A stretch of DNA of 64,000 nt from an uncultured Gammaproteobacteria bacterium (lineage in GTDB: Bacteria; Patescibacteriota; Microgenomatia; Levybacterales; GWA1-39-11), in the NCBI GenBank assembly GCA_964394645.1, contig CAYMYC010000001.1, forward strand, positions 479,359 to 543,358. The letters run 5' to 3'. Below, in pieces: positions 18,154 to 26,972 of the stretch. The translations under genes were made by a program, and so were the position numbers. How positions within the stretch are numbered: position 1 is the first letter of the stretch; each line of letters begins with the position of its first letter. The notes under the pieces are model-generated. The model did not search any database. It saw only the letters and a list, made by a program, of their open reading frames with translations, and was not told the DNA's origin.

Positions 18154-18253
18154 TTAGGTTATATTAGCAAAGCGTTGACCTTCACGCAAGAATTTAATAC
18201 AATACGAATATCCAATTTAAATTTTAGTCTTATTGACTGATAAAATTTACTTT

Positions 18254-18327
18254 GGGGGCGTAGCTCAGTTGGTTAGAGCGCCTCCCTGTCACGGAGGAGG
18301 TCGCGGGTTCGAGTCCCGTCGCTCCCG
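18254..18327 (+). tRNA. tRNA-Asp(GTC)
   Basis: Manually folded cloverleaf. Acceptor GGGGGCG/CGCTCCC, D arm GCTC...GAGC, anticodon stem CCTCC/GGAGG with loop CTGTCAC, T arm GCGGG-TTCGAGT-CCCGT, discriminator G. CCA is not encoded. Confidence 0.9.
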
Positions 18328-18416: not shown

Positions 18417-19103
18417 ATGTCTAAAAAAACCAAAAAAGACGAAGCTAAACCAATGTCTAAAAAAAGAGAAGTTCTTACTACTTCAGACTCTTATAAAAGT
18501 CTCTTATATGGGGTTGTCACTGTAATCATATTATTTATCATAGGATTTGGTACTGTTAAGCTATTAATAAATAGACCTACTCCCGCGATAGATGATCACG
18601 CAGTAAGCATCAGTAATATTACCCCAATCCCCACAGAGGAACAGGCAGGAGAGCTATATCTTCCTGATGCGCCTAAGGGTATAGGGGAGAAAACACATAT
18701 TGTTTCTGAGGATGAGTCTTTGTGGCAGATTGCTGAAAAAGAATATAATGATGGCTATAAGTGGGTGGAGATAGCACGCGCAAACAATATTTCAGACCCG
18801 AGCATTATTTTTAAAGGAGACAGGCTTAGACTTCCGAAGCTAGCGACTGCAAAGACTGAGATCAGCCCTGATATGAAGTCTGATATAAAAGCCGAACAGA
18901 ATATGAGCAGTAAGGATGCAGATGTTTCTAAAAAAACTGACATGAAAGACGATACCTATACAATAAAGGCAGGAGACGATTTATGGGATATTGCGGAGCG
19001 AGTATATAATGATGGCTATAAGTGGGTGGAGATAGCACGAGCAAACAATATTTCAGACCCTAACCTCATTCACGTAGACAACGTTCTCAAATTGCCTAGA
19101 TGA
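18417..19103 (+). CDS. Membrane-anchored protein with two LysM peptidoglycan-binding domains
   Basis: 228 aa with an N-terminal TM. Two LysM repeats are encoded by near-identical 57-bp DNA repeats (HIVSEDESLWQIAEKEYNDGYKWVEIARANNISDP...; YTIKAGDDLWDIAERVYNDGYKWVEIARANNISDP...). Confidence 0.85.
   Translation: MSKKTKKDEAKPMSKKREVLTTSDSYKSLLYGVVTVIILFIIGFGTVKLLINRPTPAIDDHAVSISNITPIPTEEQAGELYLPDAPKGIGEKTHIVSEDESLWQIAEKEYNDGYKWVEIARANNISDPSIIFKGDRLRLPKLATAKTEISPDMKSDIKAEQNMSSKDADVSKKTDMKDDTYTIKAGDDLWDIAERVYNDGYKWVEIARANNISDPNLIHVDNVLKLPR
18743..18799 (+). repeat. Intragenic direct repeat, copy 1 (57 bp, 1 mismatch to copy 2 at 19004-19060)
   Basis: The string atataatgatggctataagtgggtggagatagcacg[c/a]gcaaacaatatttcagaccc occurs twice inside the LysM gene. 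Confidence 0.9.
19004..19060 (+). repeat. Intragenic direct repeat, copy 2
   Basis: Second copy of the 57-bp LysM-encoding repeat. Confidence 0.9.
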
Positions 19104-19125: not shown

Positions 19126-19197
19126 GCGGCGGTAATTCACCGGTAGAATGTCTCCTTCCCAAGGAGAATGTAGAGGGTTCGACTCCCTTTCGCCGCT
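19126..19197 (+). tRNA. tRNA-Gly(CCC)
   Basis: Manual fold. Acceptor GCGGCGG/TCGCCGC, D arm ATTC-ACCGGTA-GAAT, anticodon stem TCTCC/GGAGA with loop TTCCCAA, T arm GAGGG-TTCGACT-CCCTT. Discriminator is U, as expected for Gly. Confidence 0.8.
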
Positions 19198-19255
19198 CAC
19201 ATTCATCTGTTTTTTACGAATCTTTCAATGAGCTTTTTTACCTCTGCGATAATTA

Positions 19256-20353
19256 ATGTATAATCTCCACATGGAGAAGAATCCTCGATCGTTTAGGTCA
19301 GAACATAACCTTTATAATAAATTTTATAAAATACTTCCAACCATAGATTATCTGACTGATCATCTACTAGAAGTACAAGATGCTACACAAAGAGTGTGGC
19401 TTCAAACTATGGCTTTAGAATCAGGTCACTTCACCAACTTGCTAACTCAACATCTTATTGCTGCAGCGAAACGGGGAGTGGATGTTAGAGTTTCATATGA
19501 CGCATATTCCACGTTCGTGACAGATAACAGATTCAATCACCTCCCTGCGCTTAATCGAGAACAGCGAGAGCATCAGCGATTTGTTCGTAGGAATCAGTTA
19601 GACATGATACAGTCTCTAAAAGAATGTTGTGCAGTTGTTCAAACAAATTATCCTATGGGAATTTCAAACATACTCCCTTTCAGGGGTGTTAGGGGAAGGG
19701 ATCACAAAAAGATTTCTATTGTGGACGATGTTGCATACATAGGGGGTGTTAACATGGCACCTTTAGATGCTCAACGTACCGATTTTATGTTAAAGACAAA
19801 CGACGTTGCTTTGACTGACAAGCTATCTCTTATTTTTCTCCAGTCTTTTCATGGGATGTTTGTATCCAATAGTTTGATTGCAGTCAATGACGAGCATACA
19901 CTGTTAATCGATCAGGGGAAGCGGGGAGAATCTATTGTAATGAGAAAAACATATGATTTAGTCAATGAAGAGGATGAGAGTATAATATTAATTTCGCCTT
20001 TTTTACCTTCCGGCATGCTTAGGAAAGCTCTTAATTCGGCTAGTGACCGAGGAGTTGATGTACAAATAATTACGTCCCCGAAGAAATTGTCCGGTTTTAC
20101 TCCCCGAATATCCCAAATGGTACATAATTTCAGACAAGTTTTTCCAAGATTCGAAATTTTTAGGTATACAGATGTGGTGCATGCAAAAGCATTGCTCATA
20201 GGGAGTAAGGCAGCCATAATTGGTTCTCATAATTTTGACGAGCTATTTGTAAGACTAGGTACTGAAGAGATCTCGCTACTTACTAGTAATCCAGAAATCA
20301 TTTCTCAACTTGCAGAATTGGCAACAACAATGAGGCAGGCATCTAAAAAGTAA
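19256..20353 (+). CDS. Two-HKD phospholipase D superfamily protein (soluble cardiolipin-synthase/PLD-like)
   Basis: 365 aa. HKD motif 1 is RDHKKISIVDDVAYIGGVN. HKD motif 2 is VHAKALLIGSKAAIIGSHNFD. The N-terminal region resembles Cls-family proteins (IAAAKRGVDVRVSYD). No TM segment. First gene of a four-gene operon. Confidence 0.75.
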   Translation: MYNLHMEKNPRSFRSEHNLYNKFYKILPTIDYLTDHLLEVQDATQRVWLQTMALESGHFTNLLTQHLIAAAKRGVDVRVSYDAYSTFVTDNRFNHLPALNREQREHQRFVRRNQLDMIQSLKECCAVVQTNYPMGISNILPFRGVRGRDHKKISIVDDVAYIGGVNMAPLDAQRTDFMLKTNDVALTDKLSLIFLQSFHGMFVSNSLIAVNDEHTLLIDQGKRGESIVMRKTYDLVNEEDESIILISPFLPSGMLRKALNSASDRGVDVQIITSPKKLSGFTPRISQMVHNFRQVFPRFEIFRYTDVVHAKALLIGSKAAIIGSHNFDELFVRLGTEEISLLTSNPEIISQLAELATTMRQASKK

Positions 20354-20355
20354 AT

Positions 20356-21159
20356 ATGAAAGAACAACGAGGCTATATTCCGTTTATGGAAAAACATCCA
20401 CATAGTAAAAATGTTCAGGGTAGCTATAAAAAGGCAGATTTACATTTGCATACAAATCGAACTGATGGTACTCTCACGCCACAAAAGGTTGTAGATAAAG
20501 CACTTGCTGTAGGTCTAGATGCTATAGCAATTACTGATCACAATACAATTGTGTCCTCTGAAATCGCATTTGATTACGTTCAACAAAAAGGACTTCAATT
20601 AGAAGTCGTAAAGGGCATTGAGGTTTCTTCACGAGACGGACATGTATTAGCTTTAGGCATGTCTTGCGATGTTGAAAGAGGCAGATCACTTGAAGATACA
20701 ATACGAGACATACATAGACAAAATGGTTTGGTTATAATACCTCACCCAGATCTCAAGGGTGCATCTTCGGTTCATTTAGGTCTACTACATGAATTATTGG
20801 GAAGTAAAGATATCGACTTATATTTAGATGGTATAGAGGTAGTAAATGGTTCAGAATTGATGATGCGAAGATTTGATAAACTGGGTATAATTGCTAGAAG
20901 AGATGATTCTAGAATAAGACAATTTTTAAATTTACACGAGGAAAACCCTAAAATGGGTAGTTTAGTAGGCAATACAGATGCACATACAAAAAATGTAGGA
21001 TTTGGTATTAGTCTCTACAGCAGTGAAAGTGTTCTTAGCGCATTACGCAATAAAGCTACTGTGCCGATGCAGACTACCACAACAATTTTAGAGGACCTGG
21101 GTCAATCTTTGAGGATGGCATATTCGGTTATAACGAGCCATTTAAGTGGAAGAATATAG
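20356..21159 (+). CDS. PHP-family metal-dependent phosphoesterase (TrpH/YciV-like)
   Basis: 267 aa with DLHLHTNRTDGTLTPQKVVDKALAVGLDAIAITDHNT, the PHP motif I/II layout of TrpH-like proteins. The start is 2 nt after the PLD stop. Confidence 0.8.
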   Translation: MKEQRGYIPFMEKHPHSKNVQGSYKKADLHLHTNRTDGTLTPQKVVDKALAVGLDAIAITDHNTIVSSEIAFDYVQQKGLQLEVVKGIEVSSRDGHVLALGMSCDVERGRSLEDTIRDIHRQNGLVIIPHPDLKGASSVHLGLLHELLGSKDIDLYLDGIEVVNGSELMMRRFDKLGIIARRDDSRIRQFLNLHEENPKMGSLVGNTDAHTKNVGFGISLYSSESVLSALRNKATVPMQTTTTILEDLGQSLRMAYSVITSHLSGRI

Positions 21160-21167
21160 CAATTATT

Positions 21168-21986
21168 ATGATATATCCATTAAATATTGCTACATACAAT
21201 ACTCAATTCTCTACTAATCCCCAAAAAATAAAGGATGATGTGCTAGCTCTGGTTCAACAAGGGGTTTTTGTGATCTGCTTGCAAGAAATTGTACATTACG
21301 ATAGGAGCATATTTATTCTCGATACGCTTCAAAAGGTTTTGGGATCTGACTGGCGAGAAATTTCTAATTTGGGTAAAGAAAAAAATAACAAAGGAATGGG
21401 AAATAGTATCTTGTGGAACGAGAAGAAAATAAAACTTGAGACCATGCAGAAGATTTTTCTACCTAAATCCAAGTTTCTTTCAATTCATGAGCTACTTTTT
21501 TCATTAATCGCAGGCGGAGTATTAGTTCCTTTTCAAAGACGATCAGTTATTGGAACATTTCGATTAAGAGGAAAACGTATAAGAATCACAAATTTACACC
21601 TTGATCATAATGGGGGGTTATATAATAGACAAAAACAACTAGAGTATGTCCTCAATTGCATAAGAAAAGATAAGAAAGTTGATGGCGAAGTTATTTGTGG
21701 GGATTTTAACATTCTTGATATTCGTAAAAATAGTGAAGAGTACGAGCTGCAGAAAAGAATTATTGGATCAGACTTTCAGGATGTAACGAGTAATATTGCA
21801 TGGACAGCAGACATTGGGAACACAAAATTCAAATATGGTTCATTTGTTAACTTACTTATTCGGTATATTCATATAAGAAGAAAGCTTGATTTTATATGGG
21901 TTAAAAATATGAAGAGCATAAAATCTAAAACGCTTCCTTTAAACGCTTCTGACCATGTTCCTCTTATAGCCTTTTTAAAAATTTAA
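21168..21986 (+). CDS. Endonuclease/exonuclease/phosphatase (EEP) family protein
   Basis: 272 aa. Conserved EEP blocks VICLQE near the N-terminus, ITNLHLDH, VICGDFN and the C-terminal SDHVPL. Confidence 0.75.
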   Translation: MIYPLNIATYNTQFSTNPQKIKDDVLALVQQGVFVICLQEIVHYDRSIFILDTLQKVLGSDWREISNLGKEKNNKGMGNSILWNEKKIKLETMQKIFLPKSKFLSIHELLFSLIAGGVLVPFQRRSVIGTFRLRGKRIRITNLHLDHNGGLYNRQKQLEYVLNCIRKDKKVDGEVICGDFNILDIRKNSEEYELQKRIIGSDFQDVTSNIAWTADIGNTKFKYGSFVNLLIRYIHIRRKLDFIWVKNMKSIKSKTLPLNASDHVPLIAFLKI

Positions 21987-21995
21987 TCTAGTCTG

Positions 21996-22988
21996 GTGTG
22001 TGTGCTTGCGTGGATTTATTGCTTAACATATAATGCGCACATGGGAAATAAACGCGAAGCAATGAGGTTCGTAAGCTCGATTGCAAATGTAACTAATAAA
22101 AATAGTCCCCTTAGAGAATTACCTTGGGTGTTAAAACGAATTGTGGATGCAGACGTAGCTCAAATAGAAAATGCTGAAGAGATATCCGCGGGTGTAGAGA
22201 AGATGGAACGTGTTCTTATGTATGCCCAAAGAGCGGTAGAGATGGGGTATATACTTTCGGAAATGTTTGTAAAAAATGAGTACGGCAATTGGTTTCCCCG
22301 CACAGAGATGCCAAGAATAATTGATCTTGGAGGAGACCCCGGAACGTTTTCAGCGCTTTATTGGAAACATAAAGCTCCTAAAGCAAATATAACTGCGGTC
22401 GAGGCAAATCCAGTTACGGCGAGTGTAATGCAGGATGGTCTCAAACGAAGAGGAATCGAGGGTATCAAAGTTGTGAACGCAGCCGTAACCGGTGAATCAA
22501 ACGGTATAGCAACTCTCCATCTACATAAGCCACGGAAAGGTTGGCACACACAAGACTATGTAAGTCAATCAAGTACTACACAAGCAGAAAATGGACATGC
22601 AATACAGGTCCCTACAATAGCTGCATCTGATTTGATTGGAGATCAAGAGAAAATAGATTTATTAAAAATTGACATTGAAGGTTCAGAAGGAGATGCAATA
22701 AAAGATCTTAGTCAGTCCGGAAAATTAAAGCAGATAGAAATGATAATTATGGAGTTCCATCATGATCCAATCGGAAATTCGCAAAATTCAATTGAAGAAA
22801 TGCTTAGAATATTAGAGGAAAATGACTTTACTATTTTAGCTGCTCATCTGACCGTAGGAAAGGGAATGAGAAGAAAGAGGAAAATATCCACAGATAGAAT
22901 TGCTCGAATAGCATCTGTACAAAGGAAAGTTTTTTTAACGTTCAGTGCGGTACAACAAGACCAAGTTAGTGAGCCACGTGTGCTTTAA
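21996..22988 (+). CDS. FkbM-family SAM-dependent methyltransferase
   Basis: 330 aa with the SAM-binding region IIDLGGDPGTFSALYW...ITAVEANP. FkbM-like C-terminal acidic blocks (KIDIEGSEGDAI...MEFHHDP). The true start may be an internal Met at about 22041-22062. Confidence 0.7.
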   Translation: MCVLAWIYCLTYNAHMGNKREAMRFVSSIANVTNKNSPLRELPWVLKRIVDADVAQIENAEEISAGVEKMERVLMYAQRAVEMGYILSEMFVKNEYGNWFPRTEMPRIIDLGGDPGTFSALYWKHKAPKANITAVEANPVTASVMQDGLKRRGIEGIKVVNAAVTGESNGIATLHLHKPRKGWHTQDYVSQSSTTQAENGHAIQVPTIAASDLIGDQEKIDLLKIDIEGSEGDAIKDLSQSGKLKQIEMIIMEFHHDPIGNSQNSIEEMLRILEENDFTILAAHLTVGKGMRRKRKISTDRIARIASVQRKVFLTFSAVQQDQVSEPRVL

Positions 22989-22992
22989 GCGC

Positions 22993-23021
22993 TTGACTGA
23001 TAAAATACCCTTTGGTAGAAT
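22993..23021 (+). promoter_or_regulatory. Candidate sigma70-like promoter TTGACT-N17-TAGAAT upstream of pyrG
   Basis: The -35 TTGACT is at 22993-22998 and the -10 TAGAAT at 23016-23021. The pyrG ORF begins at GTG 23027. The same 14-mer TTGACTGATAAAAT also precedes tRNA-Asp. Confidence 0.45.
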
Positions 23022-23026
23022 AAATC

Positions 23027-24700
23027 GTGCCGCTGAAGAACTTATCTGCTAAAAAAACAAAATACATTTTCGTCTCCGGAGGAGTCATTTCAGGTATCGG
23101 AAAAGGCTTAACTGCATCATCTATTTCTTACCTTCTTAAGTCTGCAGGTTATAAAGTTGCTCCCATAAAATTTGAAAATTATCTGAATATAGACGCAGGA
23201 ACAATAAATCCAATAGAGCATGGTGACCCTTTTCTTTGTGAGGATGGAACAGAAGGGGATATGGATATAGGGTCTTATGAAAAATTTCTCAATGAGGATA
23301 TGGGAAAGGAGAATTTTGTAACTATTGGGGCAATTTATAAGAGTGTGATTGACCGAGAGCGTAGGTTTGAGTATAACGGGGAAGATGTGGAAGCGATTCC
23401 TCATATAACTGATGAGATTACTTCTCGAATGACATCTTTAGCCAGAAAAAAGGACGCAGATATTGTTGTGGTAGAACTAGGAGGAACAGCTGGAGAGTAC
23501 CAAAACATTTTGTACTATGAAGCGTCCCGCATTATGACTTTAAGAAACCCTGGAGATGTAATTCACATACATGTGAGCTATATGCCTACCCCAGGACATC
23601 TAGGAGAGCCAAAAACAAAACCCACACAGTTGTCTGTAAGAACTTTAAACGGTATGGGCATACAGCCAGACTTAATAATTGCTCGTTCAGAAAAATATTT
23701 GGATCAGAGAAGACGTGACAGATTTGCTCTTTTCTGCAACATGCATCCAGAGGATATTATTAGTAATCCTGATGTAGACTATGTGTATGAAATTCCTGTA
23801 GTTTTGCATTCCCAGGGAATTGAGAAAAGGATATTTACAAAATTAGGGTTAGAATATAAAGCTCCAAAATTAGCTGAATGGGAAAAACTTATTGGAAAAA
23901 TAAAGGCACACAAAAAGAAAAAGGCAGAGATTGTAATAGTAGGGAAGTACTTTGGGACTGGAGACTATCAATTGCGGGATTCATACGCGGCTCTTTTTGA
24001 TGCGATTGATCATGCATCATGGGAAAGCGGAGTGGAGGTGTCTACACGTTGGGTGGACGCGGAGAAGTTGGAAAAAGAGGGTGTGGATAAAGCACTTGGA
24101 AGACCTGACGGAATTATAGTTCCTATAGGGTGGGGTGAGCGTGGTTCTGAAGGAATGATAAAAGCAGCAGAGTATGCGCTTGATAAAAAAATACCTTACT
24201 TAGGTCTTTGTTACGGTATGCAGCTTGCAGTCGTAGCATATGCGCGGCATGTTTTAGGTTGGAAAGATGCAAACACAACAGAAAATGATCCTCATACAAA
24301 GCATCCGGTAATTGCCATGATTGAATCTCAAAAAAAACTTATGGAAAGAAGATCGTATGGGGGCACAATGAGACTAGGAGGATGGGACGCTACGGTTAAA
24401 AAGGGTACGCGAGCATATGAAATATATAAAAGAGACGGTTTTAAAGGAGGGAAAGACGGATTAACATCTGAGAGGCACAGGCACAGATATGAATTTAATA
24501 ATAAATATGCAAACGATTTTGAAGGTGCTGGCTTAGTAATTTCTGCACGTTCAGTTGCAGAAAATTTAGTGGAAATTATTGAACTGTCCAAAACTAAACA
24601 CCCTTTTTTCATGGGAACTCAGGGACACCCTGAATATAAGAGTCGTCCTTTGCATCCACATCCTATTTTTGAAGAATTCTTGGATACTGCCTCAAAATAA
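23027..24700 (+). CDS. pyrG: CTP synthase
   Basis: 557 aa. N-terminal synthetase domain KYIFVSGGVISGIGKGLTASS. C-terminal class-I GATase with catalytic Cys in GLCYGMQLAV and His in HRHRYEFN. GTG start as called. Confidence 0.95.
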   Translation: MPLKNLSAKKTKYIFVSGGVISGIGKGLTASSISYLLKSAGYKVAPIKFENYLNIDAGTINPIEHGDPFLCEDGTEGDMDIGSYEKFLNEDMGKENFVTIGAIYKSVIDRERRFEYNGEDVEAIPHITDEITSRMTSLARKKDADIVVVELGGTAGEYQNILYYEASRIMTLRNPGDVIHIHVSYMPTPGHLGEPKTKPTQLSVRTLNGMGIQPDLIIARSEKYLDQRRRDRFALFCNMHPEDIISNPDVDYVYEIPVVLHSQGIEKRIFTKLGLEYKAPKLAEWEKLIGKIKAHKKKKAEIVIVGKYFGTGDYQLRDSYAALFDAIDHASWESGVEVSTRWVDAEKLEKEGVDKALGRPDGIIVPIGWGERGSEGMIKAAEYALDKKIPYLGLCYGMQLAVVAYARHVLGWKDANTTENDPHTKHPVIAMIESQKKLMERRSYGGTMRLGGWDATVKKGTRAYEIYKRDGFKGGKDGLTSERHRHRYEFNNKYANDFEGAGLVISARSVAENLVEIIELSKTKHPFFMGTQGHPEYKSRPLHPHPIFEEFLDTASK

Positions 24701-25572: not shown

Positions 25573-26151
25573 ATGACTGGACGTACACATGATTTAGCTG
25601 CCTTTTCCGCACTTTCTTTGATAGTTGCCACGCAAAACATTCCTCAAATGAGTTTGGCGACTGTTATTGTTGCAGTATCTGCAAACCTTATAGGAGGTTT
25701 AACTCCCGATATTGATCAACCTACTGCTGAACTGTGGCACAAAATTCCTGCAGGAACTGTCATAGGGAAGATTCTTTATCCACTATTAGGAGGTCATAGA
25801 TTTATTTCACATTCTGTAGTTGGAGTTATTTTATTTGGCTTTGGTGCCCATTTTCTTTTAGATGTTATTCACAGTGTTTTATTGGTGGATATGGGTGTAG
25901 TTTGGTGGTCATTTATGATCGGATATGTGTCACATTTAGTACTTGATACATTTACAAGAGATGGCGTTCCATGGCTATTTCCCATACCTATGAAAATGGG
26001 GATTCCTCCCTTAAAGCACCTTCGGATAAAAACGGGGGGGTCTATTGAAAAATCCATTGTTTTTCCTCTTCTTATGGTTTTCACAGCCTACGTTTATTAT
26101 GCAAATTACGCACGTTTCGTGGATTTTTTTAAATACTATATACATAAATGA
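25573..26151 (+). CDS. Membrane-bound metal-dependent hydrolase (DUF457/YdjM-like)
   Basis: 192 aa. Begins MTGRTHDLAAFSAL. Multi-TM with conserved His/Asp positions typical of the LexA-regulated YdjM family. Confidence 0.65.
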   Translation: MTGRTHDLAAFSALSLIVATQNIPQMSLATVIVAVSANLIGGLTPDIDQPTAELWHKIPAGTVIGKILYPLLGGHRFISHSVVGVILFGFGAHFLLDVIHSVLLVDMGVVWWSFMIGYVSHLVLDTFTRDGVPWLFPIPMKMGIPPLKHLRIKTGGSIEKSIVFPLLMVFTAYVYYANYARFVDFFKYYIHK

Positions 26152-26972
26152 AAAAAGCAGGGCATTTCTTTTTTTTACTTACGGGAGTAGTATTTTTTAC
26201 AATTCTACTGCTGCAATATTATTTATTTCCCTCTCAACCTGAAAATGTAACAAAAGAAAGTAATTCTAAAGTCGCTGGTATAAATACTGAAAATAGTAAA
26301 AGTACTCCTACCCCAAGTCTAATAAAACTTGCTAAAGAAGAGTACGTCATTGCGGCATTTGGAGATTCTATGATAGACACTATGGGTGAGAAAATGGAAT
26401 TCCTGCAGCGGGTACTTAAAAAAGAATACCCAGGCATTACGTTCAGGCTGTATAACTATGGTATTGGTGCTCAAAACGTGGAACAAGGGCTTGCTCGGTG
26501 GAATTCATCATTTAAAAATAGGGAAAGAAGTTTTCCTCCCATTTCAAGTCTTTCCCCTGATGTGATTCTTTTGGGGTCATATGCTTATAACCCTTTTAAT
26601 CCTCATGATTTGCAAAAATATAGGAATAGGCTTTCTGATTTAGTAAAAAAAGCTAAAGAAACAAAGGCTAAAGTGTATCTTTTGGCAGAAATTGCCCCGT
26701 TATATGATGGTTTTGGAGATGGTCCTAAAGGACCAAATATGTCAACTGCGTCTGCACACATGCAGGCAAATAATATACGAGAGCAGTTAGAACAAGTTGA
26801 GACAGTAGCAAAGAAACAAAAAATTGTGGTAATTGATATGTTTTCAAGAACGCAGTTTAATGGAAAATATGGGAATAGGTATTATACGAACCCTGATGAC
26901 GGAGTACATCCTTCAGATTATGGTCAAGAGGCTACTGCCGAGCAGATAGTGAAAACTGTAAAATTTGATTAA
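26148..26972 (+). CDS. SGNH/GDSL hydrolase family protein
   Basis: 274 aa. N-terminal TM or signal, then block I IAAFGDSMID with the catalytic Ser in GDS. The C-terminal DxxH-like region is DDGVHPSDYG. Confidence 0.75.
   Translation: MKKAGHFFFLLTGVVFFTILLLQYYLFPSQPENVTKESNSKVAGINTENSKSTPTPSLIKLAKEEYVIAAFGDSMIDTMGEKMEFLQRVLKKEYPGITFRLYNYGIGAQNVEQGLARWNSSFKNRERSFPPISSLSPDVILLGSYAYNPFNPHDLQKYRNRLSDLVKKAKETKAKVYLLAEIAPLYDGFGDGPKGPNMSTASAHMQANNIREQLEQVETVAKKQKIVVIDMFSRTQFNGKYGNRYYTNPDDGVHPSDYGQEATAEQIVKTVKFD

What the first reader, a model, noticed from the sequence alone, without database searches (positions are those of the whole stretch)
19126..22988. Tightly packed operon of three different phosphoesterase superfamilies plus an FkbM methyltransferase, directly downstream of tRNA-Gly
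Four genes with 2-9-nt gaps: a two-HKD PLD/cardiolipin-synthase-like protein, a PHP (TrpH-like) phosphoesterase, an EEP-family nuclease/phosphatase and an FkbM-family SAM methyltransferase. Three mechanistically distinct phosphodiester-cleaving or phosphotransfer folds plus a methyltransferase in one transcription unit does not match any pathway I recognise. Two readings are possible. One is lipid head-group remodelling or scavenging, since PLD transphosphatidylation and FkbM-type O-methylation of sugars or lipids are known. The other is a nucleic-acid-targeting salvage or defence module, since PLD-Nuc, PHP and EEP families all include nucleases. The cluster starts 59 nt after tRNA-Gly(CCC), a classic integration position. 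A TTGACTGATAAAAT...CCCTTTGGTAGAAT stretch at its 3' border (22993-23021) loosely echoes pieces of the tRNA-Gly sequence (GGTAGAAT, CCCTTT, GCCGCT).
Basis: partly seen in the sequence, partly recalled or inferred. Interest (0 to 1): 0.6.

Follow-up and report, generated by a model that had tools for sequence, protein, structure and literature searches.

The report
Conserved four-enzyme operon in Levybacteria
A real, vertically inherited four-gene cassette (ClsB-like phospholipase-D enzyme, PHP phosphoesterase, YbhP-like phosphoesterase, FkbM methyltransferase) that is kept together across Microgenomates-group candidate-phyla bacteria and most likely remodels phosphodiester-linked membrane head groups; it is not a tRNA-integrated island or a defence system, and its chemistry is untested.

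Summary
tRNA-Gly(CCC) lies at 19126-19198, followed by four same-strand genes: a PLD with two HKD motifs, a PHP, an EEP and an FkbM methyltransferase. All catalytic motifs are intact.

The island reading is not supported:
- GC and GC3 match the flanks.
- The cassette diverges in step with neighbouring housekeeping genes.
- PolX-tRNA-Asp-LysM-tRNA-Gly...cassette-pyrG synteny is shared with relatives at 55-59 % identity.
- The 3' "tRNA echo" is the pyrG promoter plus pyrG's first codons.

PLD plus EEP is the invariant core. Their profiles match E. coli ClsB/ClsA (98.9/98.7 %, against PssA 24 %) and YbhP (97.6 %, against exonuclease III 5 %). ClsB and YbhP are the two enzymes of the enterobacterial ybhP-clsB operon. 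PHP is dispensable in three lineages and FkbM in one.

A divergent locus mixes PLD, EEP and FkbM orthologs with a polyprenyl-phosphate-sugar-type glycosyltransferase, a ROK kinase, an SDR and a DHQS-like cyclase.

Best reading (about 0.45): phospholipid or glycophospholipid head-group remodelling. Nucleic-acid end processing (0.2) and defence (0.07) are weaker. I rate it a new variant of a known kind, of moderate interest.

The parts
19126..19198 (+). tRNA-Gly(CCC). It is an upstream neighbour and not part of the cassette.
   Evidence: ARAGORN. In the syntenic relatives L006 and L007, variable genes lie between this tRNA and the cassette.
19237..19264 (+). Promoter-like site TTTACC-16-TATAAT. 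The -10 box ends 6 nt before ATG 19271, so the PLD mRNA is probably leaderless.
   Evidence: Promoter scan. A TG-n-TATAAT box 5-7 nt before ATGGA is conserved in the window, L001, L006, L007 and L009 in the upstream alignment. Similar boxes precede the called starts in L003 and L010, and L002 matches L009.
19271..20353 (+). Two-HKD PLD-superfamily enzyme, ClsB/ClsA-like and with no TM helices. The longest ORF starts at 19256; the probable start is 19271.
   Evidence: Pfam and NCBIfam. H150, N166, H309, K311 and N326 are invariant and K152 nearly so across 21 homologs. hhalign gives ClsB 98.9 %, ClsA 98.7 % and PssA 24 %. The model has pLDDT 88.
20356..21159 (+). PHP-family metal-dependent phosphoesterase with a complete trinuclear-site motif set.
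   Evidence: H30, H32, D37, H62, E89, H96, H130, D208 and H210 are invariant. It shares only 67 N-terminal columns with RNase AM. It is decayed in L002, L003/4/8/61 and L005.
21168..21986 (+). EEP-family phosphoesterase, YbhP-like.
   Evidence: The catalytic residues N11, E40, D179, N181, D241, D262 and H263 are invariant in 55 sequences, and H144 and D146 are nearly so. The model has pLDDT 94. hhalign gives YbhP 97.6 % full length, YafD 95 % over half the length and ExoIII 5 %.
22006..22034 (+). Promoter-like TTGCGT-17-TATAAT ending 6 nt before ATG 22041. This is probably FkbM's own leaderless promoter.
   Evidence: Read from the sequence. A TATAAT-like box lies 5-8 nt before the FkbM start in 7 of 9 loci.
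22041..22988 (+). FkbM-family SAM methyltransferase with a conserved N-terminal helical extension of about 100 aa. The longest ORF starts at GTG 21996.
   Evidence: The motifs DLGGDPG, VEANP and DLLK-DIEGSE are invariant. The 315-aa database gene call supports the later start.
22993..23026 (+). pyrG promoter (TTGACT-17-TAGAAT with extended TG) and a 5-nt spacer before GTG 23027. This is the 3' border and not an att site.
   Evidence: A 23-nt near-copy at 18233-18255 lies upstream of tRNA-Asp (family D4).

Best explanation
This is a lineage-specific, chromosomally inherited operon of Microgenomates-group Patescibacteria; the window itself is from Candidatus Levybacteria. It is built around a ClsB-like PLD and a YbhP-like EEP phosphoesterase, which is the same enzyme pair as in the enterobacterial ybhP-clsB operon.

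Inferred mechanism:
1. The PLD works through a phosphohistidine intermediate. It transfers a phosphatidyl (or similar phosphoryl-linked) group from a scavenged phospholipid onto a new alcohol acceptor, such as a polyol, sugar or sugar phosphate.
2. The PHP removes a terminal phosphate from the acceptor or the product. This would be analogous to the PGP-to-PG and PIP-to-PI steps.
3. The EEP cleaves or edits a phosphoester on the head group.
4. FkbM O-methylates the head-group hydroxyl.

Shown: the genes, their intact active sites, their conserved linkage and order, vertical inheritance, and their closest relatives.
Inferred: the substrate class (membrane lipid or glycolipid head groups) and every individual step.
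For: Linkage:
- The four-gene order is conserved in at least 9 lineages at 42-72 % identity, with unrelated flanks in most of them.
- L001 has the most similar cassette (61-71 %) but entirely different neighbours, so the unit moves intact.

Core pair:
- PLD and EEP persist in every cassette variant, while PHP is broken in three lineages and FkbM is missing in one.
- The PLD profile matches ClsB at 98.9 % (E 1e-17, 300 columns) and ClsA at 98.7 %, against PssA at 24 %. NCBIfam ranks cardiolipin synthases (52 bits) above DrmC (30) and NucT (25).
- The EEP profile matches YbhP at 97.6 % over its full length, against ExoIII at 5 %.
- ybhP-clsB-ybhN is an operon in E. coli (10.1101/2022.03.11.483950; PMC9241728). 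ClsB makes phosphatidyl-trehalose lipids (PMC6446866).

Context in other genomes:
- L054 places orthologs of FkbM (38 %), EEP (31 %) and PLD (hhalign 95 %, with family motifs) among a polyprenyl-phosphate-sugar-type GT2, an SDR, a ROK kinase and a DHQS-like cyclase.
- The nearest outgroup FkbM lies in a Wzx/Wzy polysaccharide cluster.

Inheritance:
- Vertical, with housekeeping neighbours.

Published precedent:
- Genome-based metabolic reconstruction has predicted that CPR bacteria interconvert scavenged phospholipids with a PLD (10.1101/211649).
Against: - No protein has a TM helix or a demonstrated lipid-binding element.
- The similarity to ClsB and ClsA is far below the families' curated cutoffs (52 against about 290 bits), so this is not an ortholog.
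- YbhP itself has no known function, so the analogy supplies no chemistry.
- Foldseek neighbours of the EEP are TDP2, nocturnin and CNOT6L, which act on nucleic acids or nucleotides. No sphingomyelinase-type EEP appears in the top 50.
- PLD fold neighbours include the PLD3/4 nucleases at the same TM-score as lipid PLDs. The best hit, SpPLD 7e0m, has nuclease-like features according to its authors (PMC8004604).
- The N-terminus of the PHP is closest to RNase AM and pAp-phosphatase-type enzymes.
- L054 is a single locus.
- No YbhN/PplT partner was found.
Confidence: 0.45

Rival explanations
1. Nucleic-acid end processing or nucleotide salvage. Three phosphoesterases would clean or degrade DNA and RNA. 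The PLD would act as a Nuc/PLD3-like or Tdp1-like enzyme, the EEP as a Tdp2-like 5'-end phosphodiesterase, and the PHP as a 3'-phosphatase or 5'-3' exonuclease. This would serve repair, or the recycling of imported nucleic acids in an organism that cannot make nucleotides.
For: - The top 25 EEP fold hits are TDP2, followed by nocturnin and CNOT6L.
- The PLD profile hits PLD4/PLD3, Nuc, NucT and a poxvirus nicking-joining enzyme. Fold hits to PLD3/4 have a TM-score of about 0.62.
- The PHP profile's best PDB hit is RNase AM, at 1.5e-17.
- PolX lies upstream and pyrG downstream in the window, L006 and L007.
- CPR dependence on scavenged nucleotides has been proposed from genome analysis (10.1101/211649).
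Against: - In calibrated profile comparisons the EEP matches YbhP at 97.6 % but ExoIII at only 5 %.
- The PLD aligns over its full length to ClsA and ClsB, but to the nucleases over one domain only and at lower scores.
- The PHP shares only 67 N-terminal columns with RNase AM.
- From general knowledge, FkbM-family enzymes are small-molecule or sugar O-methyltransferases and have no role in such a pathway.
- PolX and pyrG adjacency is absent from the other six cassette contexts.
- TM-scores of about 0.7 are generic for the EEP fold.
Confidence: 0.2
2. An anti-phage or anti-plasmid defence system with an R-M or DISARM-like logic. FkbM would mark self, and the PLD, PHP and EEP nucleases would destroy unmarked invaders.
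For: - PADLOC gives weak hits: PLD to DrmC at 1e-13 (one domain), MkoB and DpdK; PHP to PDC-M49A at 2.5e-7; FkbM to mad2 at 1e-3.
- The cassette sits in different genomic contexts in different lineages.
- Gene decay is seen in some lineages.
Against: - The cassette is vertically inherited. Its divergence tracks the flanking housekeeping genes and its GC3 is the same.
- Synteny is conserved at 55-59 % identity.
- The family is confined to one CPR clade.
- No relatives were found on viral contigs.
- There is no ATPase, helicase or sensor.
- From general knowledge, FkbM is not a DNA methyltransferase family.
- The defence-like genes next to L005 belong to a mobile element that disrupted the cassette.
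- 81 of 85 further loci, nearly all generic FkbM loci, lack all three partners.
Confidence: 0.07
3. Remodelling or turnover of a phosphodiester-linked cell-envelope glycopolymer (teichoic-acid-like or a phosphoglycan) rather than of membrane lipids. FkbM would cap or methylate the sugar.
For: - The outgroup FkbM lies in a Wzx/Wzy polysaccharide cluster.
- L054 contains a GT2, a ROK kinase and an SDR.
- The window's neighbours include peptidoglycan genes (MurT/GatD, LysM).
Against: - All four proteins lack signal peptides and TM segments.
- From general knowledge, no PLD-family enzyme is known to act in teichoic-acid synthesis.
- The neighbouring envelope genes are not conserved with the cassette.
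Confidence: 0.13

Closest known systems
E. coli / Salmonella ybhP-clsB-ybhN operon (EEP protein YbhP, PLD-type ClsB, PplT/YbhN)
   Same: - It pairs a soluble two-HKD PLD with an EEP phosphoesterase in one operon.
- The profiles match ClsB (98.9 %) and YbhP (97.6 %, full length).
- ClsB is a promiscuous phosphatidyl transferase that makes phosphatidyl-trehalose (PMC6446866).
   Different: - The gene order is reversed: PLD comes first here.
- There is no YbhN/PplT membrane partner.
- PHP and FkbM genes have been added.
- The sequence similarity is remote (about 21-24 % identity, and far below NCBIfam cutoffs), so these are analogous or distantly homologous genes and not orthologs.
- YbhP's own function is unknown.
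E. coli yafD-yafE (EEP protein followed by a SAM methyltransferase)
   Same: - An EEP gene is followed 4 nt later by a SAM-dependent methyltransferase.
- The EEP profile matches YafD at 95 % over the C-terminal half.
- The class-I MTase next to the FkbM-less cassette in L005 resembles YafE (28 % identity, E 7e-11).
   Different: - YafE is a class-I UbiE-like MTase and not an FkbM.
- The similarity to YafD is weaker than to YbhP.
- I found no established function for this pair.
Two-step phospholipid head-group synthesis (PgsA + Pgp for PG; PIP synthase + PIP phosphatase for bacterial PI; eukaryotic PLD-type PGS1). This comparison comes from general knowledge.
   Same: The logic is the same: a phosphatidyl transferase followed by a dedicated phosphatase.
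   Different: - The phosphatases in those pathways are not PHP enzymes.
- The bacterial transferases are CDP-alcohol phosphatidyltransferases and not PLDs.
- Nothing here was tested biochemically.
DISARM DrmC and other defence-associated PLD nucleases
   Same: A single HKD domain gives weak PADLOC hits.
   Different: - There is no DrmA/B helicase and no DNA MTase.
- Inheritance is vertical.
- The PLD has a two-domain Cls-like architecture.

Membership tests
PLD superfamily (two-HKD enzymes) | Two HxK(x)4D(x)6G(G/S)xN motifs in one chain | tested here: met
   The first motif is H150-K-K152...D157...GGVN166. The second is H309-A-K311...G...GSHN326, with the Asp replaced by Gly. The catalytic His, Lys and Asn are invariant or nearly so in 21 homologs. 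Pfam PLDc_2 scores 81.6 bits.
Cardiolipin synthase ClsA/ClsB (NCBIfam TIGR04265 / NF008427) | A score above the curated equivalog cutoff (290 / 281 bits) | tested here: not met
   The scores are 52.4 and 51.3 bits. hhalign gives 98.9 % and 98.7 % probability over about 300 columns. This shows homology and shared architecture, but not membership.
Cardiolipin synthase ClsA | N-terminal transmembrane helices | tested here: not met
   The maximum 19-residue Kyte-Doolittle mean is 1.47 and there is no N-terminal hydrophobic segment. The protein aligns to ClsB from residue 12 but to ClsA only from residue 123, after ClsA's N-terminal extension.
Cardiolipin synthase / phosphatidyl transferase | Phosphatidyl transfer between lipid and alcohol | not testable with these tools
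   This needs an enzyme assay or lipidomics.
PHP phosphoesterase superfamily | The HxH, D, H, E, H, H, DxH metal-ligand set | tested here: met
   H30, H32, D37, H62, E89, H96, H130, D208 and H210 are invariant in 7 homologs. NF038032 scores 83 bits against a cutoff of 80.
RNase AM (TrpH/YciV, NF047791) | Full-length similarity and a score above the cutoff (375 bits) | tested here: not met
   The score is 61.7 bits. hhalign aligns only 67 N-terminal columns.
EEP (endonuclease/exonuclease/phosphatase) superfamily | The conserved N, E, (H/Y), D, N, D, N, D, H catalytic constellation on a four-layer alpha/beta sandwich | tested here: met
   N11, E40, D179, N181, D241, D262 and H263 are invariant, and H144 and D146 at least 90 % conserved, in 55 sequences. 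The pLDDT-94 model matches EEP structures at E 1e-17. Pfam scores 23.7 bits, marginally below the gathering score of 24.5.
YbhP-type EEP | Full-length profile similarity exceeding that to other EEP branches, and an operon partner of ClsB type | tested here: met
   YbhP scores 97.6 % (E 3e-12, 222 columns), YafD 95 % (112 columns) and ExoIII 5 %. The gene lies in the same operon as the Cls-like PLD, separated from it only by PHP. No curated YbhP model was available, so orthology remains untested.
FkbM methyltransferase family (TIGR01444 / PF05050) | A score above the cutoff and SAM-binding motifs | tested here: met
   The scores are 71.6 bits (cutoff 37.7) and 59.2 bits (cutoff 22.7). DLGGDPG, VEANP and DIEGSE are invariant.
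tRNA-integrated genomic island | An integrase, direct repeats derived from the tRNA 3' end, deviating composition, and absence from the same site in relatives | tested here: not met
   - There is no integrase.
- No att-like repeat of the tRNA-Gly 3' end was found. The 'echo' is the pyrG promoter and start codons.
- GC and GC3 equal the flanks.
- The cassette is present upstream of pyrG in L006 and L007.
Known anti-phage defence systems (PADLOC) | Matches to all components of a described system | tested here: not met
   Only weak single-domain hits were found (DrmC, PDC-M49A, mad2), and the EEP had none.

The most novel reading that the evidence does not exclude
The cassette would be a previously undescribed pathway by which lipid-auxotrophic CPR bacteria convert scavenged host phospholipids into their own O-methylated phosphatidyl-sugar or phosphatidyl-cyclitol head group. 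A ClsB-like transphosphatidylase would act first, followed by PHP dephosphorylation, YbhP-like editing and FkbM methylation. If so, it would also assign a first function to the orphan YbhP-type (and possibly YafD-type) EEP enzymes that E. coli pairs with ClsB and with a methyltransferase.
Probability: 0.2. Interest if true: 0.75.

Novelty: new variant of a known kind. Interest (0 to 1): 0.45.

Why it matters
CPR/Patescibacteria cannot make their own lipids or nucleotides, and how they turn scavenged material into their own envelope is an open question. This cassette is compact, conserved and confined to one clade, and all its active sites are intact, so it is a directly testable candidate for that step.

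It also bears on E. coli. That organism keeps a ClsB-YbhP operon and a YafD-YafE operon whose EEP partners have no assigned function. A four-gene version that unites the PLD, EEP and methyltransferase themes suggests the pairings are functionally meaningful, and it offers an orthogonal system in which to work out what these EEP enzymes do.

If the function turns out to be nucleic-acid end processing instead, the cassette would be a new repair or salvage module specific to CPR.

Tried and rejected
1. tRNA-Gly integration island. I rejected it on composition, synteny and the absence of an integrase or att repeat. The 'echo' is explained by the pyrG promoter and start codons.
2. The 23-nt near-repeat at 18233 and 22993 as element borders. 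The exact 14-mer occurs only at these two places, but with up to two mismatches there are 5 matches against 1.7 expected, and 5 of 100 shuffles reach that. One copy is the pyrG -35 region. The interval it brackets contains tRNA-Asp, LysM and tRNA-Gly, which are syntenic in relatives. I left it as probably a shared promoter-like sequence or chance.
3. My initial assumption that the NCBIfam PRK05421 models represent YbhP was wrong. They are the YafD family.
4. Single-sequence and profile searches of PDB sequences for EEP and FkbM gave nothing informative. The FkbM hits to designed helical repeats reflect only its helical N-terminus.
6. The contexts of distant Lysobacterales and Pirellulaceae PLDs were uninformative.
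7. The metagenome scan with FkbM returned mostly generic FkbM genes and only one more cassette.
8. The 70-aa and 230-aa ORFs after the EEP in L142 are not a split FkbM.
9. Literature searches on Patescibacteria and PLD, on yafD/yafE and on the four-gene combination gave no relevant description. One further query was rejected for its syntax.
10. The viral contig scans were negative.

Full report
**Observation**

ARAGORN places tRNA-Gly(CCC) at 19126-19198. Four + strand ORFs follow at 19256-20353, 20356-21159, 21168-21986 and 21996-22988.

Pfam and NCBIfam confirm four families:
- A PLD with two HKD motifs: PLDc_2 at 6e-23.
- A PHP phosphoesterase: CehA/McbA-type metallohydrolase model at 83 bits, above its cutoff of 80.
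- An EEP protein: 23.7 bits, just under Pfam's 24.5.
- An FkbM methyltransferase: TIGR01444 at 72 bits.

The marginal EEP call is secured in two ways. The catalytic constellation is fully conserved in 55 homologs. An AlphaFold model with pLDDT 94 matches EEP structures at E 1e-17.

The PHP has all nine metal ligands. The PLD has both HKD motifs, invariant or nearly so in 21 homologs. FkbM has its SAM motifs. None of the proteins has a TM segment.

**Gene starts and transcription**

Homolog alignments and database gene calls indicate that the PLD starts at ATG 19271 and FkbM at ATG 22041. Each start lies 6 nt after a TATAAT box.

The same box at 5-8 nt recurs before the PLD start in most of the cassette loci examined and before FkbM in 7 of 9 loci. 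pyrG has TAGAAT-5-GTG.

Across the window, the spacing between a TAnAAT box and candidate start codons peaks sharply at 6 nt: 13 cases at 5-8 nt against about one per bin elsewhere. Leaderless-type starts therefore look like a habit of this genome. The cassette is probably two units, PLD-PHP-EEP and FkbM, with no terminator between them.

**Is it a unit?**

Yes. A tblastn search of the four proteins against all fetched loci finds all four, in the same order, in L001, L002, L003/L004/L008/L061, L006, L007, L009, L010 and L011. Identities are 42-72 %, and the four proteins diverge in parallel.

Contig-length matches between the three homolog lists indicate many further short contigs that carry two or three of the genes. 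81 of 85 further loci, nearly all generic FkbM loci at 35 % identity or less, carry none of the partners.

**Is it an island at tRNA-Gly?**

No. The evidence against is as follows.
- The window is from a Candidatus Levybacteria genome.
- GC is flat, and the cassette's GC3 (0.24-0.33) equals that of its neighbours.
- L007 and L006 share the order PolX - tRNA-Asp - LysM - tRNA-Gly(CCC) - [variable genes] - cassette - pyrG.
- Cassette identity to L007 (47-55 %) falls inside the range of the flanking housekeeping genes (43-71 %).
- The neighbours are housekeeping genes: MurT/GatD, an M48 peptidase, LemA, PolX, pyrG, L19, YraN and deformylase.
- There is no integrase.

The 22993-23021 'echo' is a σ70-type promoter with an extended -10 for pyrG. 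A corresponding promoter sits at the same place in L007. 'GCCGCT' is simply pyrG's GTG-CCG-CTG. GGTAGAAT occurs four times in the window against 1.8 expected.

In other lineages the cassette lies in unrelated contexts. L001 has the most similar cassette but shares no flank. The cassette is therefore kept together through rearrangements, which argues for selection on the linkage.

**Natural variants**

- Roizmanbacteria (L003/4/8/61, seen in dozens of assemblies) carry an in-frame deletion. It fuses the PLD, up to about residue 328, to PHP residues 105-267. This removes the PHP's HxH, DH, E and H ligands.
- In L002 the PHP is frameshifted and has two stop codons.
- On one contig (L005 plus L141) an element of about 9.8 kb has inserted into PHP near codon 130. 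It carries a large serine recombinase, SocA, an N6-MTase and a HerA-like ATPase. A contig from another sample (L142) is the 100 % identical empty site, with a 7-bp junction overlap.
- That same lineage has no FkbM. It does have a class-I SAM methyltransferase directly upstream of the PLD.
- In Saccharimonadia and other CPR groups the EEP gene occurs alone.

PLD plus EEP is therefore the stable core of the cassette. PHP and FkbM are accessory.

**Closest relatives**

*PLD.* The profile aligns over about 300 columns to E. coli ClsB (98.9 %, E 1e-17) and ClsA (98.7 %), but poorly to PssA (24 %). NCBIfam ranks cardiolipin synthases above DrmC and NucT, though all are far below their cutoffs.

*EEP.* The profile aligns full length to YbhP (97.6 %, E 3e-12), over half its length to YafD (95 %), and not to exonuclease III (5 %).

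YbhP and ClsB are co-operonic in E. coli (10.1101/2022.03.11.483950; PMC9241728). ClsB is required for phosphatidyl-trehalose lipids in Salmonella (PMC6446866). E. coli yafD is followed after 4 nt by the methyltransferase gene yafE.

*PHP.* It resembles RNase AM only in 67 N-terminal columns.

*Fold searches.* These do not discriminate. The EEP's neighbours are TDP2, nocturnin, unannotated Bacteroides EEPs and CNOT6L, at TM-scores of about 0.7. The PLD's neighbours are Serratia SpPLD, PLD3/4, vaccinia F13, PLD1/2 and PssA, at about 0.6. The authors of the SpPLD structure themselves note nuclease-like features (PMC8004604).

**Context clues**

L054 holds orthologs of FkbM (38 %), EEP (31 %) and a divergent family PLD (hhalign 95 %, sharing the SPFLPSG and LGTEEI motifs). 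They are interleaved with a polyprenyl-phosphate-sugar-type GT2 that lies 3 nt from the PLD, an SDR, a ROK kinase and a DHQS-like cyclase. The nearest outgroup FkbM lies in a Wzx/Wzy polysaccharide cluster. No relatives occur on viral contigs.

**Interpretation**

The best-supported reading is a ClsB/YbhP-type module for remodelling phosphodiester-linked head groups of membrane lipids or glycolipids. It is extended by a phosphatase and an O-methyltransferase, in organisms predicted to depend on scavenged lipids (10.1101/211649). The individual steps are inferred and not shown.

The rival of nucleic-acid processing keeps real weight, because the fold neighbours and the PHP N-terminus point that way. 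It leaves FkbM unexplained, however, and the calibrated profile comparisons contradict it.

Defence is unlikely, given vertical inheritance, clade restriction and the missing components.

I found no prior description of the four-gene combination in the searchable literature.

**Verdict**

The cassette is real, conserved and functionally coherent. It is not an island. I rate it a new variant of a known pairing (PLD plus EEP), with unknown chemistry and moderate interest.

Noticed in passing
L005 8475 / L141 5588 (contig logan SRR8427163_13579) compared with L142 (logan SRR21707676_87510): An integrative element of about 9.8 kb has inserted into the PHP gene of a cassette, near codon 130. At one end it carries a 526-aa large serine recombinase. 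It also carries SocA/Panacea, an N6/N4 DNA MTase, a HerA/DUF87 ATPase and an HTH regulator. The empty site exists in another sample, with 100 % identical flanks and a 7-bp overlap at the junction.
   Followed up: partly
window-wide, for example 19259-19273, 22029-22043 and 23016-23029: TAnAAT boxes lie 5-8 nt before start codons, with a peak at 6 nt: 13 cases against about 1 per bin of background. The PLD and FkbM boxes recur in related loci, and pyrG's in L007. This suggests that many genes in this Levybacteria genome are transcribed as leaderless mRNAs.
   Followed up: partly
L003/L004/L008/L061 7001-8467 (protein P0009, 488 aa): Roizmanbacteria carry a PLD::PHP in-frame fusion created by a deletion. 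The deletion removes the last ~35 residues of the PLD and the first ~105 residues of the PHP, including most of the metal ligands. The fusion is seen in many assemblies (index: 63 blocks), so it is fixed and is not an assembly error.
   Followed up: partly
window 18233-18255 and 22993-23015: A 23-nt direct near-repeat (87 % identity, with an exact 14-mer TTGACTGATAAAAT) occurs twice. One copy lies just 5' of tRNA-Asp and the other forms the -35 region of the pyrG promoter. The exact 14-mer is found nowhere else in the window. The tRNA-Asp copy has no matching -10 box.
   Followed up: partly
L143 2123-3550 (E. coli K-12 yafD-yafE): In E. coli the EEP gene yafD is followed after 4 nt by yafE, which encodes a SAM methyltransferase. 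Together with ybhP-clsB, this means E. coli holds both halves of the theme (EEP plus PLD, and EEP plus MTase) that the CPR cassette unites.
   Followed up: partly
L054 6001-12724 (JGI 3300027914, GC 0.31): A loose cluster reads FkbM / GT2 (polyprenyl-phosphate-sugar type) / PLD / SDR / ROK kinase / DHQS-like sugar-phosphate cyclase / EEP. It may be a cyclitol or sugar head-group pathway related to the cassette.
   Followed up: partly
window 18719-18809 and 18980-19070: The LysM protein gene (18417-19103) contains two 91-nt direct repeats at 86 % identity, which encode its two LysM domains. This looks like an internal duplication.
   Followed up: no
window 21483-21530 (EEP residues ~106-121): The CPR EEP family has a conserved hydrophobic segment (consensus HEKIFSWxAGGITxPFQRR). 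In the hhalign alignment this segment is largely gapped against YbhP, and it has lower model confidence (pLDDT about 77). It could be a membrane- or substrate-contact loop.
   Followed up: no
window 26148-26972: A GDSL-family lipase/acylhydrolase gene lies 3 kb downstream of the cassette. It may be relevant to lipid scavenging. I did not check whether it is conserved near the cassette elsewhere.
   Followed up: no
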